The notes under the pieces are model-generated. The model searched no databases. It was not told the DNA's origin and worked only from the letters and a program-made list of their open reading frames with translations. A stretch of 11,483 bases of DNA from a virus. Its lineage: Duplodnaviria > Heunggongvirae > Uroviricota > Caudoviricetes. Every line of letters starts with the position of its first letter. Positions within the stretch are counted from its first letter, which is position 1. This document shows positions 4,460 through 9,071 of this stretch, in pieces. Where the stretch lies: IMG/VR virus record IMGVR_UViG_2690315922_000005; one strand, written 5' to 3'. The translations under genes and the position numbers were made by a program.

Positions 4460-4990
4460 TTAGCGAGTCAGAAACAACGAATCTTTATACTTTTGCTGTT
4501 GTTCATTTAAATACTTAGCTGTTTCATCGCTGGCAAATGGAAATATTACCGTATTTTTAGGCATGGTAATTTCTTTTTTGTCCAGCGTCAGAGTAAACAT
4601 AGGAACATACTGAGCAGAGTAACGCACCGCAGAAACGAGCTCTAGTTTAGACTCTTCAACAACACTTAAATTATCCAGGCTAACTTTCTCTTCATCTTTT
4701 TTCTTTGACGCATTTAAAGTTTTTATTACTTTATTTAATTTCTCCTGAAAATCCTCCTTAAAGTTTTCAGGATTGCCGTCGACAACAAGAATCTGTTCAC
4801 CCTGATTATCTGGAAAAATAATCTTTGCACTTATCAATTTATTTTCTTTATAAACATCACCAAGTTTTATGGCTCCTCCAGATAACTGAATAATATGTTC
4901 ATCTTTAAAGGAGATGTTGCCAGAGATTATGAGAGATGAAAAAATAGCCGCTGCTCCAAGAATTACACTTGCTGTGATATAGCCTTTCAT
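4460..4990 (-). CDS. Moron-encoded hypothetical protein, 176 aa, with an N-terminal membrane anchor or signal sequence; lysine/glutamate-rich; family not recognised
   Basis: Intact ORF in an AT-rich island (about 30-35% G+C by eye against about 55-60% in flanking tail genes). The N-terminus MKGYITASVILGAAAIFSSLIISG is a roughly 20-residue hydrophobic segment after a basic residue; it has no cysteine, so it is not a lipoprotein. Has its own promoter and terminator. Confidence 0.8.
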   Translation of the reverse strand: MKGYITASVILGAAAIFSSLIISGNISFKDEHIIQLSGGAIKLGDVYKENKLISAKIIFPDNQGEQILVVDGNPENFKEDFQEKLNKVIKTLNASKKKDEEKVSLDNLSVVEESKLELVSAVRYSAQYVPMFTLTLDKKEITMPKNTVIFPFASDETAKYLNEQQQKYKDSLFLTR

Positions 4991-5081: not shown

Positions 5082-6914
5082 CTACCAAAATCGGGTATAG
5101 CCAACATCGTGATTTATATCAATGCCACTGGAGCGTGTTTCCGTAACCCGCATACCTGATGGCATATTTATAAATGATACCTTGATCTCACCATCAACTT
5201 TTGGCGCGGTAGCTTTATTAATCATGAAGGGATTCGGGCCTGTGGCACCGGAGGCGTTGTTTGCCTGAGCCGGATCCACCGCCGGATAAGGTGTGTATCC
5301 CCGCGCCGGTATTCCCGTCCCATAAGCATCATAAGCACCCGCGCCCCACTGCGCAGAGTTAATGGCATCGACCGTGTCACCGGAACTGTCGGTAAACCAC
5401 TCAATAATTGGCTTCAGCTTGTCCCACATATCCTGAAACCACTTAACAACCGGTCCCCAGTTATTGATCACCATCCCCAGCGGCGACCAGGCAAAAACCT
5501 TCTTCAGAAGTTCCCAACCTGCCTCAAAATAAGGACCAATGGTTTCCCAGAGCTTCTTGAAATAAGGTCCGACAACATCCCAGTTAGTGATAATTAATCC
5601 CGCAGCCAGAGCAATCGCCGTCGCAATCATGCCAATCGGCGTCATCGACATAATCCTGCTGACAATACTGATGGCACTGCCCACGCCCATCAATCCCAGT
5701 TTCAGAATCGCAAGACCGGCAGCAAGCCCGACGACGCCGCGAATAACCCGGGGATTTTCATCCGCAAACTTCGTGAATTTCTCCCCCAACTCCCCCAGCC
5801 ATTGTGTGATATTTTTAGCGTCACCAGAAAATGCGCCGCCAATAGCCGCAAGGCCGTTAGTTGCGGTCCCTGTCATTGCCTCCCACAGGTTGGACAGCGT
5901 ACCAAGCTGTGCCTGAACACGTTTATTCAGGCTGGCCTGTTTATGCATCTTCTGCTGGATCTGATCGTAGCCATCCTTTCCTTTATCGATTAGTGCATTG
6001 ACCACCTGAAGGGTTTCGGCATCATCACCAAATATTGCCTTAAGTACACCGGTTCGCTTAACGTCGGTCAGTTTTCGCAGCTTTGCCAGTTGCCTGAACA
6101 TGTTATCAAGACCGCCAAAACTTCCTTTGCCGTCAGTAAAATCGAGCTGTACCCCGAGTTTCTGGCGGGCCATAACTTTATTAACGTCCCTGATTTTCTT
6201 AACGCTTAATCCGGACTGGATAACTTTTCGCAGGGCATTACCTGCCGACTCCCCGTTCATCCCCATCTGATCCATCATGACGCTGATGGGGGCAAGGCTC
6301 TGTGCAGCCTGAAGACCATCCTTGTTCACCATCTTCAGAACAGAACTGGTTTTAGTGAAGAAGGACAACATGTTGGTATCGTCAACGCCCAGATAAAACG
6401 CCTTCTGGATAGTGTCGAACAGCCCCATCATGTCTTCTGACGCCGTTCCGGTAGCATCCTGCATCTTTGCAGCAAACTCGGCAGCCGCTTCCGGTGTTTT
6501 TTTCAGTTGTACCGCAAGATAAGCTGTCGCTTTACCCACACCACCCAGAATGTTTTCTGCCGGGATCCCCTGACGCACCAGCATCTGCATCATGTTCTGG
6601 AAATCAGCCGTTGTACCGGGTAGCTGGTTACCCAGGCCAATAGCCAGTTTATTGATGTCCTGAAAGCTCTTTCCAACCTCGCCGTTCGCATCCATCATGG
6701 CGACTTTCAGCCCGGTGGCGGCGTTTTCCTGATCGGCATAAGATTTCAGGGAAAGCGTCAGACCCGCTGCCAGTCCGCCCCCAAGCGCCAGCCCACCCTG
6801 TGACGCTTCTTCCGCCTGGCGTTTAAATCCCCGGATTTTCTTTTGCATTTTCGACAGCGCGGGAGAAAGCCTGTCGACACCGGTGATCAACGCCTTAAGC
6901 TCAAATTCAGCCAT
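5082..6914 (-). CDS. Tail tape measure protein
   Basis: 610-aa ORF, Ala/Gly/Leu-rich with an internal hydrophobic stretch. Immediately follows the chaperone pair, and its start overlaps the end of the frameshift-extension ORF, which is the canonical arrangement. Confidence 0.85.
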   Translation of the reverse strand: MAEFELKALITGVDRLSPALSKMQKKIRGFKRQAEEASQGGLALGGGLAAGLTLSLKSYADQENAATGLKVAMMDANGEVGKSFQDINKLAIGLGNQLPGTTADFQNMMQMLVRQGIPAENILGGVGKATAYLAVQLKKTPEAAAEFAAKMQDATGTASEDMMGLFDTIQKAFYLGVDDTNMLSFFTKTSSVLKMVNKDGLQAAQSLAPISVMMDQMGMNGESAGNALRKVIQSGLSVKKIRDVNKVMARQKLGVQLDFTDGKGSFGGLDNMFRQLAKLRKLTDVKRTGVLKAIFGDDAETLQVVNALIDKGKDGYDQIQQKMHKQASLNKRVQAQLGTLSNLWEAMTGTATNGLAAIGGAFSGDAKNITQWLGELGEKFTKFADENPRVIRGVVGLAAGLAILKLGLMGVGSAISIVSRIMSMTPIGMIATAIALAAGLIITNWDVVGPYFKKLWETIGPYFEAGWELLKKVFAWSPLGMVINNWGPVVKWFQDMWDKLKPIIEWFTDSSGDTVDAINSAQWGAGAYDAYGTGIPARGYTPYPAVDPAQANNASGATGPNPFMINKATAPKVDGEIKVSFINMPSGMRVTETRSSGIDINHDVGYTRFW

Positions 6915-7074
6915 GTGTGCGTTTCTCCTGCTCTATCCTGTTTGCCTGACTGACCAGTAAGGGAATTTCACTGATCGGCATATTCAGCAATTCGAAAGGA
7001 TTAATGCGCCAGTAGCTGGCGCAGTCAAAGAAGCGATCAGTGAGGTATTCAGCCGTCAGGCCTGGAGGAAAAAA
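6907..7074 (-). CDS. -1 frame extension of the tail assembly chaperone (gpGT-like fusion product, predicted programmed frameshift)
   Basis: The -1 frame ORF (track 6907..7089) overlaps the 3' end of the chaperone gene and stays open to a TGA at 6907, overlapping the tape measure start. The slip site T TTT TTC is at 7074-7068 on the minus strand. Confidence 0.5.
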   Translation of the reverse strand, partial: FFPPGLTAEYLTDRFFDCASYWRINPFELLNMPISEIPLLVSQANRIEQEKRTHG

Positions 7075-7325
7075 CCAGCCACAAGCCACGCCGCTGCATT
7101 CAGGTCTGCCGGAGACATCTGGTCGACAGAGCTTTGCGGCACTTTCGCCAGCCGCACAATGTATTTCGACACCACATGCGCCAGAAGTTTGACTGACTCA
7201 TCCTGATTCATCTGGTAGGGATACCCCAGCTCGCGGACATCCTTCCCGGTGGGCTCATCAAACTCCAGTACGGAGAGTGTCTCGCCATGAGCAGTAATCG
7301 GTTTCTTTAACTCAAGCTCTTTCAT
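7056..7325 (-). CDS. Tail assembly chaperone (Mu gp41-like; lambda gpG analogue)
   Basis: 89-aa ORF between the tube and tape measure genes. Ends ...GGT TTT TTC CTC CAG GCC TGA, containing the slippery heptamer T TTT TTC. Confidence 0.7.
   Translation of the reverse strand: MKELELKKPITAHGETLSVLEFDEPTGKDVRELGYPYQMNQDESVKLLAHVVSKYIVRLAKVPQSSVDQMSPADLNAAAWLVAGFFLQA
7068..7074 (-). promoter_or_regulatory. Slippery heptanucleotide U UUU UUC (X XXY YYZ) for -1 ribosomal frameshifting
   Basis: Plus strand is gaaaaaa at 7068-7074, so minus strand is TTTTTTC in the zero-frame register T TTT TTC, four codons before the chaperone stop. Confidence 0.5.
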
Positions 7326-7681
7326 TACTGGTAATCCCCTTCTTCACCGTGGAACTCAAGATCAACCGTGCCTTCTTCGGCATTATGGTTCGCTTCGCCG
7401 TGCAGCCAGGCAGACGACAGTACATAGACCTGACCGTTCGCCAGCTCGGCAGTGATAGTCATCTCATCAGACGAGGTGATTTTGTTCACCGGAAAATTCT
7501 TCGGCACCTTGAAAGTCCCTTTGACATAAGGCGCACGGTGAGTTTCCTTGCGGTCCACTGAACCGTCCAGGCCGATGATGTCATCATTGACCGTCCTGTT
7601 CATGGGCACCTCAATGCCGCCGGTCAGCGATAGCTGTTGACCGTCAATTTTGAAATAACAGGTTCCCCCGATACGGGCCAT
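7325..7681 (-). CDS. Tail tube protein (Mu gpM / gp40-like)
   Basis: 118-aa ORF directly after the sheath gene with a 1-nt start/stop overlap. The size and position are as expected for the tube protein of a contractile tail. Its stop overlaps the chaperone start (TAATG). Confidence 0.75.
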   Translation of the reverse strand: MARIGGTCYFKIDGQQLSLTGGIEVPMNRTVNDDIIGLDGSVDRKETHRAPYVKGTFKVPKNFPVNKITSSDEMTITAELANGQVYVLSSAWLHGEANHNAEEGTVDLEFHGEEGDYQ

Positions 7682-9071
7682 TATGCAGACTCCTCTGAAT
7701 ACTGAAGACGGAACTGGTTAACCACGGCAAAGACACGCAACTGGTTAACATAGTCAGGCGGGAACAGCGTGTTCAGGCGGTTCGGATCGCTGGCATCACG
7801 CTCCACAACCAGGTACTGCTTAAACAGTTCGTAGTTTTCCACGGTCCCCGCACGCTCAAGCTGACGGTAGGTTGCCAGCAGTTCCCCTTTGATCACCGCC
7901 GGTGTGACAATCGCCTGACCTGGACCAAAGCGGGTACCGTCGCTGGCAAGCTTGTGACGCCCGTACTTACTGGTAATGACGGATTTCAGTTTGCGCAGCA
8001 CATACGCGCTGGTATGCAGCGTCTCGCTGTCGAGGTAGCTGTTATCCGCAACACCGTAAGCGTTTTTCCTGTACGTGGTGACATCACGCTGAATGCGCAG
8101 CACCCCGCTTTCGACATACGCCGTTGCCACGCCATGAGACAGCAGGGTCTGTTGTTCGGTCATCGTGAACCGTTTCCCCTTCGGCGCAGGCAGCATACCC
8201 ACCAGCTCACCGGTCTGCGTGGGACGTGCCGGATCGTTGCGGATAAACACCGCTGCGCNNNNNNNNNNNNNNNNNNNNTTGCCGTATACACATGACCATA
8301 CAGCTGACGCGCATAGCTCCAGCGACCGCTGGTATCGTTCATCTCGGTCACCAGCGTGTTAACGGAGGCTGTGTCGTTGAACGGCAGGCCGATATAATCA
8401 AACGGCTCATCCGCCATTGCAGCCACCGCGCCGGTGAGAACAGGAGCGCCCGTTCCGGCGGTACCCGTCGCCACGGCAATCTGTACGCCCGCTGGCAGCA
8501 CTTCGCCCCCACCAAAGCCGTAGTAATTGAGGCTGACAGGAATTTCATTCCCGCAAAGCCCCTTATGACGCGCGGTCAGTGTGACCACGCCTGCCGAAGA
8601 TGAGGCAGTAAACGGCAGGGTCGGAACGGCATTGATGGCATCCTGGATACTGCTGGCAATCGTCGCAACGTTATCGCCGTTGGTCACCGGTGCCTGCACG
8701 CGGGTACGTCCCACATAAACATTCACCGTGCCGGTTTCGGTTGCCGCGCCGGTCACCGTCAGCGTAACCGTTGCCGCCGCGCCCGTGGATTCAGGAACGG
8801 CAATCACATACAGCTCGCCAAACGGGTCGGTCTGGCGATAAGCCTCGACCATACGCGCCAGCTGACTTCCCGCACCACAAATCTGGCGTGCATAGTCTGC
8901 CGACGGCATCAGTACCAGACTGTTGGCAACAATCTCTGCACCGTTATTGGCATGACCAATCAGCAGCGATGCTCCGCTGTCCTGTGCAGTATTCGCCGCC
9001 TGATTATCCATTTCCGCATAAAACAGCGGAACCAGCGTATTCGACGGAATGGTGTTAAAGCTTATCGTCAT
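7681..9071 (-). CDS. Tail sheath protein (Mu gpL / gp39-like), interrupted by an assembly gap
   Basis: Track ORF 8160..9071 gives the N-terminal roughly 264 aa up to the N run. Track ORF 7681..8250 is the C-terminal roughly 190 aa, and its frame stays open up to the gap, so its M is not a real start. The two halves are in different registers across the 20 N, so the gap length is unknown. Content and position are typical of a sheath. Confidence 0.8.
8259..8278. other. Assembly gap (20 N)
   Basis: Literal run of n characters in the sequence. Confidence 0.99.

What the first reader, a model, noticed from the sequence alone, without database searches (positions are those of the whole stretch)
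6907..7325. Predicted programmed -1 ribosomal frameshift in the tail assembly chaperone, giving a gpG/gpGT-like pair
The 89-aa chaperone ORF ends ...GCT GGT TTT TTC CTC CAG GCC TGA. The heptamer T TTT TTC (7074-7068) is a canonical X XXY YYZ slip site placed four codons before the stop. A -1 slip enters the overlapping ORF (track 6907..7089), which continues for roughly 55 more residues and terminates overlapping the tape measure ATG. This matches the conserved frameshift arrangement upstream of tape measure genes in tailed phages.
Basis: partly seen in the sequence, partly recalled or inferred. Interest (0 to 1): 0.5.

Follow-up and report, generated by a model that had tools for sequence, protein, structure and literature searches.

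The report
Phage tail chaperone frameshift site
This is the usual programmed -1 frameshift by which tailed phages make a short and a long tail-assembly chaperone from one gene, here in an SfV-like prophage of E. coli/Shigella; it looks real and strongly conserved but is of an ordinary, well-known kind that genome annotations simply leave out.

Summary
On the minus strand an 89-aa chaperone gene (7325-7056, Pfam PF10109) lies between the tail tube gene and the tape measure gene. It carries an in-phase U_UUU_UUC heptamer (7074-7068). A -1 shift there opens 53 more codons, which end at 6907, 8 nt inside the tape measure gene, giving 89-aa and 139-aa products.

Comparison supports function. In 36 distinct relatives (99% to 38% protein identity) the heptamer is always present and in phase: the preceding codon ends in T in 36 of 36, and the first Phe codon is TTT in 36 of 36. 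The -1 peptide is conserved (invariant W, P, R, I), while the zero-frame tails vary in length and sequence. Many relatives have no start codon in the -1 frame.

Phage P2 gpE/gpE+E' belongs to the same Pfam family and is annotated with a -1 shift. It has the same layout (91/142 aa, GGT TTT TTG) with the shift at the same profile position.

No stimulatory RNA structure lies next to the site. A conserved hairpin sits 44 nt downstream and remains unexplained.

Verdict: interpretation supported, though no protein evidence is available here. It is a new member of a known kind that public records do not annotate. Interest is low.

The parts
7056..7325 (-). Zero-frame tail assembly chaperone gene ('G'/gpE-like), 89 aa
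   Evidence: ORF and translation. Pfam PF10109 Phage_TAC_7, E=1e-16, residues 4-86 = profile 2-78/79. AlphaFold2 model pLDDT 94.8; its best BFVD fold matches are tail assembly or tape measure chaperones, including Mu FS-gp41.
7068..7074 (-). Slippery heptamer U_UUU_UUC in X_XXY_YYZ phase (codons GGT TTT TTC)
   Evidence: Sequence. In 36 distinct relatives the codon before ends in T 36/36 (GGT 28, CGT 3, AAT 4, AGT 1) and the first Phe codon is TTT 36/36. Background shares are GGT 0.36 and TTT 0.48.
6907..7068 (-). -1 frame extension ('T'/E'-like domain): 53 codons plus TGA, entered by re-reading C7068
   Evidence: Translation. phrog_32181, E=4e-40. Conserved across relatives, with invariant W106, P110, R130, I131 in fusion numbering. 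Third positions of this frame are the most variable: 40/47 against 17/47 for second positions. No start codon in this frame in 26 of 75 distinct loci.
6907..7325 (-). Predicted fusion product GT (7325-7068 joined to 7068-6907), 139 aa
   Evidence: Built. Collinear with P2 gpE+E' (142 aa) by hhalign over 120 columns, E=9.4e-5, probability 59%.
5082..6914 (-). Tape measure protein gene; its ATG (6914-6912) overlaps the -1 ORF stop by 8 nt (ATGGCTGA); Shine-Dalgarno AGGAG at 6929-6925
   Evidence: PF10145, E=1e-26. Sequence. P2 has the same 8-nt overlap between E+E' and T.
7325..7681 (-). Tail tube gene immediately upstream (its stop overlaps the chaperone ATG)
   Evidence: PF10618 Tail_tube, E=3e-33. 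PGAP annotation of an identical E. coli locus.
7005..7023 (-). Conserved RNA hairpin UGCGCCAG-CUA-CUGGCGCA inside the -1 ORF, beginning 44 nt 3' of the heptamer; role unknown, probably not a classical frameshift stimulator
   Evidence: -13.7 kcal/mol, z=-5.1. RNAalifold consensus. All 4 stem wobble bases are invariant in 13 clade members, while 15 of the other 19 amino-acid-invariant codons vary. 93% of cells paired, but almost no covariation. One compensatory G-C to A-U change (L188) and one C to U wobble change (L250) among 39 metagenome variants. Lost in L022, L024 and L027 and in the SfIV/ST64B clade.

Best explanation
The window carries the tail module of an SfV-like prophage (HK97-type head, Mu-type contractile tail). 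The gene between the tube and tape measure genes is a tail assembly chaperone of the P2 gpE family.

Most ribosomes read it in the zero frame and terminate three codons after the heptamer, giving the 89-aa protein. A minority do something else. With tRNA-Phe on UUU in the P site and tRNA-Phe on UUC in the A site, these ribosomes slip one nucleotide back on U_UUU_UUC. Both tRNAs re-pair with UUU. The ribosome then continues in the -1 frame for 53 codons, giving a 139-aa protein with the same N-terminal 86 residues and a new C-terminal domain.

By analogy with lambda G/GT and P2 E/E+E', the shared part would bind the tape measure protein. The extension would recruit the tube protein, and the slip frequency would fix the ratio of the two forms. 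The heptamer seems to act without an adjacent stimulatory structure.

What is shown: the anatomy, family membership, nucleotide-level and phase conservation of the heptamer, and protein-level conservation of the -1 ORF. What is inferred: that the shift is ribosomal, its efficiency (perhaps a few per cent), and the roles of the two proteins.
For: 1. Anatomy.
2. Position and family: PF10618 tube, then PF10109 chaperone, then PF10145 tape measure; 98.8% DNA identity to phage SfV.
3. Heptamer conservation: in 7 phages and 32 GTDB genome loci (99% to 38% identity) an in-phase T_TTT_TTY sits at the invariant FF. The -1 extension is 50-59 aa and ends at or within a few nucleotides of the tape measure start.
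4. Wobble bases: the codon before FF is always NNT although the amino acid varies (G, R, N, S), and codon 1 is TTT in 36/36. Background is GGT 0.36, TTT 0.48, and neighbouring Ala codons use all four bases.
5. Coding evidence for the -1 frame: the peptide is conserved and substitutions show -1 frame codon periodicity. Zero-frame tails are 3 to 26 sense codons long and not conserved.
6. Independent initiation is unlikely: 26 of 75 distinct loci have no ATG/GTG/TTG in the -1 frame.
7. The P2 record annotates a -1 shift at GGT TTT TTG. P2 has the same product sizes (91/142 aa), the same 8-nt overlap with the tape measure gene, and PF10109 ending at profile position 78/79 in both. The fusion aligns collinearly with E+E'.
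8. Literature: the G/GT-type frameshift is conserved in long-tailed dsDNA phages, and P2 shifts at TTTTTTG without a downstream structure (PMC5009743; PMC3091744).
9. All 39 distinct metagenome variants that passed a filter requiring a 40-70-codon -1 ORF carrying the T-domain motif were recovered with a slip-site pattern; 25 other pattern matches failed that filter or were unusable.
Against: - No protein or reporter evidence is available for this phage group. None of the public records examined annotates the shift, and I found no paper describing it.
- No stimulatory structure lies at the usual 5-9 nt spacing: the first 40 nt fold at z=0.23, and there is no Rfam match.
- The -1 domain does not match Pfam PF06528 (P2 GpE) in any of 23 fusions. 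The link to P2 E' rests on an hhalign probability of only 59%.
- Four of 86 IMG/VR copies have GGT changed to GGG, which leaves an imperfect heptamer.
- The sequence data alone cannot exclude transcriptional slippage, which would give the same protein.
Confidence: 0.87

Rival explanations
1. Transcriptional slippage. RNA polymerase adds one extra U while copying the T6 run. A fraction of mRNAs then carries U7 and encodes G-F-F-P-P... in a single frame, the same 139-aa protein, without any ribosomal event.
For: The site is a homopolymer (T6 here, T7 in the SfIV/ST64B/Yersinia clade). An extra U gives exactly the same product, as the sequence shows directly. Bacterial RNA polymerase slippage on A/T runs is documented (PMC5009743).
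Against: - Efficient slippage is reported for runs of about 9 A or T. It is not detectable at T5C5 without a special upstream hairpin (PMC5009743). Here the run is only 6.
- The phase of the run is fixed in 36 of 36 sequences (NNT TTT TTY, never NNV TTT TTT), although both would encode FF. Phase matters for tandem tRNA slippage but not for polymerase slippage.
- The homologous P2 site is annotated as a translational frameshift.
Confidence: 0.06
2. Two separate genes. The -1 ORF (listed as 6907-7089, GTG start, 60 aa) is translated on its own as a small protein, as one GenBank record annotates it.
For: the ORF listing finds a GTG at 7089. ON470584.1 annotates a 60-aa 'hypothetical protein' there. 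The ORF forms its own PHROG, phrog_32181.
Against: - No Shine-Dalgarno sequence precedes the GTG (upstream AATGCAGCGGC).
- 26 of 75 distinct loci, and most of the divergent ones, have no ATG/GTG/TTG anywhere from the upstream -1 frame stop to 10 codons past the slip site.
- Conservation in the -1 frame begins only after the heptamer.
- This model does not explain the invariant in-phase heptamer.
Confidence: 0.03
3. Chance. The heptamer and the open -1 frame are coincidental, and the 141-nt gap before the tape measure gene is non-coding.
For: TTTTTTY occurs 8 times in the window, not significantly more than expected. About 9% of in-phase positions have 53 or more open -1 codons.
Against: The heptamer, its phase, the ORF length, the ORF end point and the peptide sequence are conserved across relatives down to 38% identity. 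Coding periodicity is present in the -1 frame. The P2 site is homologous.
Confidence: 0.01

Closest known systems
Phage P2 gpE / gpE+E' (-1 frameshift at T_TTT_TTG in the FETUD tail operon; Christie et al. 2002, cited in PMC3091744; annotated in NC_001895)
   Same: - Same Pfam family for the zero-frame part (PF10109), with the shift at profile position 78/79 in both.
- Same codon context GGT TTT TTN.
- Product sizes 91/142 aa against 89/139 aa.
- The long form's stop overlaps the tape measure ATG by 8 nt in both.
- Located between the tube and tape measure genes of a contractile tail.
- No adjacent RNA structure (PMC3091744).
- The whole fusion aligns collinearly.
   Different: - Only about 21% identity (BLASTP E=0.43).
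- The last base of the heptamer is C or T, not G, so the A-site tRNA is tRNA-Phe rather than tRNA-Leu.
- The -1 domain does not reach Pfam PF06528, which covers P2 E'.
- The surrounding tail genes are Mu-like, not P2-like.
Phage lambda gpG / gpGT (G_GGA_AAG; Levin et al. 1993; Xu, Hendrix and Duda 2004, 2013, 2014, as cited in PMC5009743)
   Same: Same gene position upstream of the tape measure gene. Same logic: a short abundant form plus a rare -1 extended form from one start codon. The proposed roles are also the same (shared part binds tape measure, extension binds the tail tube subunit).
   Different: No detectable sequence relation: the only Pfam match here is PF10109. The heptamer differs. 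Lambda has a non-contractile tail. Function in this phage group is inferred, not shown.
Phage Mu gp41 / FS-gp41
   Same: The rest of the tail module in the window is Mu-like: DNA circulation protein, gpP, gp45 and DUF2635. Mu gp41 also touches PF10109 weakly. Mu FS-gp41 is a fold match to the model.
   Different: Mu is reported to use a -2 shift (PMC2628397; PMC5009743). Its chaperone is 144 aa and belongs to PF23746, which the window protein does not match.

Membership tests
Conserved tail-assembly-chaperone frameshift pair (G/GT class of Xu, Hendrix and Duda 2004) | Gene lies between the major tail or tube gene and the tape measure gene | tested here: met
   Tube PF10618 at 7681-7325, chaperone at 7325-7056, tape measure PF10145 at 6914-5082. 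Same order in the annotated relatives examined.
Conserved tail-assembly-chaperone frameshift pair (G/GT class of Xu, Hendrix and Duda 2004) | Two overlapping ORFs; the second is reached only by a frame change and has no conserved start of its own | tested here: met
   The -1 ORF overlaps the end of the first ORF. 26 of 75 distinct loci have no start codon in that frame.
Conserved tail-assembly-chaperone frameshift pair (G/GT class of Xu, Hendrix and Duda 2004) | Slippery sequence in the correct phase in the overlap | tested here: met
   T_TTT_TTC at 7074-7068, in phase. In phase in 36 of 36 distinct relatives.
Conserved tail-assembly-chaperone frameshift pair (G/GT class of Xu, Hendrix and Duda 2004) | Slip site and second ORF conserved among homologues | tested here: met
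   Exceptions: 4 of 86 IMG/VR copies have GGG in place of GGT.
Conserved tail-assembly-chaperone frameshift pair (G/GT class of Xu, Hendrix and Duda 2004) | Two proteins with a common N-terminus are made in a fixed ratio; both are needed for tail assembly and are absent from virions | not testable with these tools
   Needs mass spectrometry, western blotting, reporter assays and genetics. No published data for SfV-like phages were found.
P2 gpE / gpE+E' family | Zero-frame part belongs to Pfam PF10109 (Phage_TAC_7) | tested here: met
   E=1e-16, 61 bits against a cut-off of 25. All 23 aligned relatives match. P2 E matches at E=1.8e-12.
P2 gpE / gpE+E' family | -1 shift on GGT TTT TTN at the C-terminal end of the PF10109 domain | tested here: met
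   The domain ends at profile position 78/79 at the heptamer in both proteins. P2 context GTCGGTTTTTTGTCG. The two sites fall in the same hhalign column.
P2 gpE / gpE+E' family | -1 extension belongs to Pfam PF06528 (Phage_P2_GpE) | tested here: not met
   No match at E up to 10 for the window peptide, and none at E up to 1 for any of 23 fusions. P2 E' matches at 1.2e-21. hhalign is collinear through this part but only at 59% probability, so distant homology remains possible.
Mu gp41 / FS-gp41 | Chaperone of Pfam PF23746 (Gp41_Mu) with a -2 frameshift | tested here: not met
   The window protein matches only PF10109; Mu gp41 matches PF23746 at 9e-35. The open extension here is in the -1 frame, and the +1/-2 frame is open for only 16 codons.
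Known cis-acting frameshift stimulators (downstream stem-loop or pseudoknot at 5-9 nt; upstream Shine-Dalgarno-like element as in dnaX) | Stable conserved structure starting 5-9 nt after the heptamer, or a Shine-Dalgarno-like sequence about 10 nt upstream | tested here: not met
   The first 40 nt fold at -5.4 kcal/mol, z=0.23. RNAalifold finds only 2 local pairs there. No Rfam match. Upstream is GCGTGGCTTGTGGCTGG, with no GGAGG-like motif, and it varies among relatives.

The most novel reading that the evidence does not exclude
The 19-nt hairpin at 7023-7005 may be a functional RNA element of the SfV-like clade. It is held invariant at all four stem wobble positions and shows one compensatory change. 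Possible roles are a distal modulator of the frameshift, a processing or stability signal, or a regulator of tape measure translation. It might act together with the potential pairing between the UUCCU that straddles the 3' end of the slip site (7070-7066) and the tape measure Shine-Dalgarno AGGAG (6929-6925). If so, this would be a new kind of cis element coupled to a G/GT frameshift, which is generally thought to need only the heptamer.
Probability: 0.1. Interest if true: 0.45.

Novelty: new member of a known kind. Interest (0 to 1): 0.2.

Why it matters
The practical value is for annotation. This prophage type occurs in about 20% of complete E. coli genomes (1085 of 5426) and in the Shigella serotype-converting phages SfV, SfI and SfII. 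None of the records examined, RefSeq/PGAP included, carries the 139-aa frameshift product. One record miscalls the -1 ORF as a separate hypothetical gene.

The analysis also links a PHROG of unknown function (phrog_32181) to the C-terminal domain of a tail assembly chaperone. It further shows that P2-type U_UUU_UUN frameshifting is used with a Mu-type tail, whereas Mu itself is reported to shift by -2. No open biological question is affected.

Tried and rejected
1. An outer stem (7042-7034 with 6977-6969) from the single-sequence fold is not conserved: 62% of cells paired. Rejected.
2. The database "fusion" proteins P0001-P0003 (137-139 aa) looked like natural in-frame GT genes. Their sequences show several scattered indels in singleton contigs, so they are assembly errors and not evidence.
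3. The apparently split tail sheath gene, and the in-phase GGGAAAC at 8178 with a 163-aa -1 extension, are caused by a run of 20 N at 8258-8277. It is not a second frameshift.
4. Searching solved structures by sequence and by fold gave no meaningful match for the chaperone.
5. Rfam, promoter and terminator scans of 6700-7500 found nothing relevant.
6. NCBIfam has no model for the fusion or for P2 E+E'.
8. IMG/VR scans with divergent queries added few new sequences.
9. The primary papers on P2 (PMC135442) and SfV (PMC134923) are not held. Whether Xu et al. 2004 already listed SfV could not be checked.
Full report
**What is in the window.** All genes of interest are on the minus strand. Pfam scans give this order:
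- tail sheath (two fragments),
- tail tube, 7681-7325 (PF10618),
- an 89-aa protein, 7325-7056 (PF10109, "Phage tail assembly chaperone proteins, E, or 41 or 14", E=1e-16),
- a 141-nt gap with no annotated gene,
- tape measure protein, 6914-5082 (PF10145),
- a 176-aa protein of unknown function,
- Mu-type DNA circulation, gpP and gp45 baseplate proteins.

The region is 98-99% identical to the Shigella serotype-converting phages SfV, SfI and SfII. It is 100% identical to prophages in E. coli chromosomes, and 1085 of 5426 complete E. coli genomes carry a copy.

**Checking the observation.** The 89-aa ORF ends GCT GGT TTT TTC CTC CAG GCC TGA. T_TTT_TTC is at 7074-7068 in the X_XXY_YYZ phase. The -1 frame entered at C7068 is open for 53 codons and stops at 6909-6907, inside the tape measure start (ATGGCTGA; ATG at 6914). 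The coordinates and description are therefore correct. The extension is 53 residues, giving predicted products of 89 and 139 aa. On its own the pattern is only mildly unusual. TTTTTTY is not enriched, there are six in-phase heptamers in 9.9 kb of coding sequence, and 9% of in-phase positions have 53 or more open -1 codons. The question was therefore settled by comparison with relatives.

**Comparative test.** I collected seven phages whose DNA similarity ranges from 99% to none in this gene. I added 32 loci from one-per-species bacterial genomes, with protein identity from 99% down to 38%. A 33rd locus was a spurious weak hit. Every one has:
- an in-phase T_TTT_TTC or T_TTT_TTT at the two invariant phenylalanines at the end of the PF10109 domain;
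- a -1 extension of 50-59 residues;
- an extension stop at or within a few nucleotides of the tape measure start.

Among 36 sequences distinct at the DNA level, the codon before the Phe pair always ends in T although its amino acid varies (GGT 28, CGT 3, AAT 4, AGT 1). The first Phe codon is TTT in 36 of 36. Elsewhere in the same genes GGT is 36% of Gly codons and TTT 48% of Phe codons, and the adjacent Ala codon uses all four third bases.

The -1 peptides align with invariant W, P, R and I and a motif [FY][DN]xAx[YF]W[RK][IL]NP...A.RI. The zero-frame tails after the heptamer are 3, 8-9, 14, 21 or 26 sense codons long and unrelated in sequence. Downstream of the zero-frame stop, variation concentrates at third positions of the -1 frame: 40 of 47 columns variable, against 17 of 47 at second positions. 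A slip-site pattern scan of metagenomes gave 39 further distinct variants that passed a filter requiring a 40-70-codon -1 ORF with the T-domain motif; 25 other pattern matches failed it or were unusable. Of 86 near-identical IMG/VR copies, 82 have the intact heptamer. Four have GGT changed to GGG, leaving G_TTT_TTC or GGG TTT TTT. These may be decaying prophages or reduced-efficiency sites.

**Rivals.**
- *Independent translation of the -1 ORF* is annotated in one GenBank record. It is unlikely: the GTG at 7089 has no Shine-Dalgarno sequence, and 26 of 75 distinct loci have no start codon at all in that frame.
- *Transcriptional slippage* on the T run would give the same protein and cannot be excluded from sequence. 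However, the run is only six long, and slippage is described as efficient at about nine A or T (PMC5009743). The run's phase is also fixed in all sequences, which matters for tRNA re-pairing but not for RNA polymerase.
- *Chance* is excluded by the conservation.

**RNA structure.** The 40 nt after the heptamer fold no better than shuffles (-5.4 kcal/mol, z=0.23). The same holds for the equivalent regions of SfIV and P2. No Rfam family matches.

There is, however, a perfect 8-bp hairpin, UGCGCCAG-CUA-CUGGCGCA, at 7023-7005 (-13.7 kcal/mol, z=-5.1). It begins 44 nt after the heptamer.
- In 13 clade members all four stem wobble bases are invariant. Of the other 19 amino-acid-invariant degenerate codons in the -1 ORF, 15 vary at the third base.
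- RNAalifold recovers the hairpin.
- Pair counting shows conservation rather than covariation.
- Among 39 metagenome variants there is one compensatory G-C to A-U change and one C to U wobble change.
- It is broken in L022, L024 and L027 and absent from the SfIV/ST64B clade, all of which keep the slip site.

It is therefore too distant and too clade-specific to be a general stimulator, and I leave it unexplained. An outer stem from the single-sequence fold is not conserved. RNAalifold also pairs UUCCU, which straddles the 3' end of the heptamer, with the tape measure Shine-Dalgarno AGGAG. Both sides are invariant for other reasons, so this cannot be tested.

**Comparison with known systems.** The closest case is phage P2. 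Its record annotates E (91 aa) and E+E' (142 aa) with a "site of -1 translational frameshift". The context is GTC GGT TTT TTG, and the E+E' stop overlaps the tape measure gene T by 8 nt. PF10109 ends at profile position 78/79 exactly at the heptamer in both P2 E and the window protein. Pairwise identity is only about 21%. A profile of 23 predicted fusions aligns collinearly with E+E' over 120 columns, including the extension (hhalign E=9.4e-5, probability 59%). The extension does not reach Pfam PF06528, which covers P2 E'. Instead it forms phrog_32181, of unknown function.

Literature held in the library describes the frameshift as conserved among long-tailed dsDNA phages:
- It gives a set ratio of the two forms, 30:1 in lambda, and the efficiency is 2- to 3-fold higher in P2 (PMC5009743).
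- It occurs at TTTTTTG in P2 without downstream structure (PMC3091744).
- It is -2 in Mu (PMC2628397).

An AlphaFold2 model of the 89-aa protein is confident (pLDDT 94.8). Its best matches among predicted viral structures are tail assembly or tape measure chaperones, including Mu FS-gp41. No solved structure matches.

**Verdict.** The anatomy, family membership and conservation are shown here. The ribosomal mechanism, its efficiency and the proteins' roles are inferred from the homologous P2 and analogous lambda systems. It is a new, unannotated member of a well-known kind, so interest is low. The main value is correcting annotation in a very common E. coli/Shigella prophage family. The downstream hairpin is a minor open point.

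Noticed in passing
window 8258-8277: A run of 20 N lies inside the tail sheath gene. About 126 nt present in intact SfV and E. coli sheath genes are missing or replaced. This splits the gene into two ORFs (9071-8160 and 8250-7681) and creates a spurious in-phase GGGAAAC at 8178 with a long -1 extension. It is an assembly or masking gap, not a mutation or a second frameshift.
   Followed up: yes
window 7005-7023 (minus strand): A perfect 8-bp hairpin (-13.7 kcal/mol) lies inside the -1 ORF, 44 nt after the heptamer. It is invariant at all four stem wobble positions across the SfV-like clade, with one compensatory change in a metagenome variant (L188). It is lost in more distant relatives. Function unknown.
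   Followed up: partly
window 7066-7070 and 6925-6929 (minus strand): UUCCU, which straddles the 3' end of the slip site, is complementary to the tape measure gene's Shine-Dalgarno AGGAG 140 nt downstream. RNAalifold pairs them in all 20 sequences, but both sides are invariant, so there is no covariation to test.
   Followed up: partly
L051, L081, L112, L118 (IMG/VR copies), at the position equivalent to window 7074: Four of 86 near-identical prophage copies have GGT changed to GGG just before the T run. This leaves an imperfect heptamer (G_TTT_TTC, or GGG TTT TTT C). They may be decaying prophages, or the site may tolerate a mismatch in the first position.
   Followed up: partly
window 4460-4990 (minus strand): A 176-aa ORF lies between the tape measure and DNA circulation genes. 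It has no Pfam or NCBIfam match and belongs only to PHROGs of unknown function (phrog_5485, E=6e-108). PGAP calls it a hypothetical protein.
   Followed up: partly
L006-L009, L030-L041 (SfIV, phiP27, ST64B, YeP1 and related prophages): A second clade, with about 40% identical chaperones, uses T_TTT_TTT followed by A. Its zero-frame tail is 8 to 26 sense codons long (mostly 21), acidic and Ser/Thr-rich. The -1 domain still ends at or within a few nucleotides of the tape measure start. The shift is not annotated in those phage records either.
   Followed up: partly
database proteins P0001-P0007: Singleton 'fused' or odd-length versions of the chaperone in metagenome assemblies carry scattered indels around the T run and elsewhere. 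They look like homopolymer sequencing errors and should not be taken as natural fusions.
   Followed up: yes
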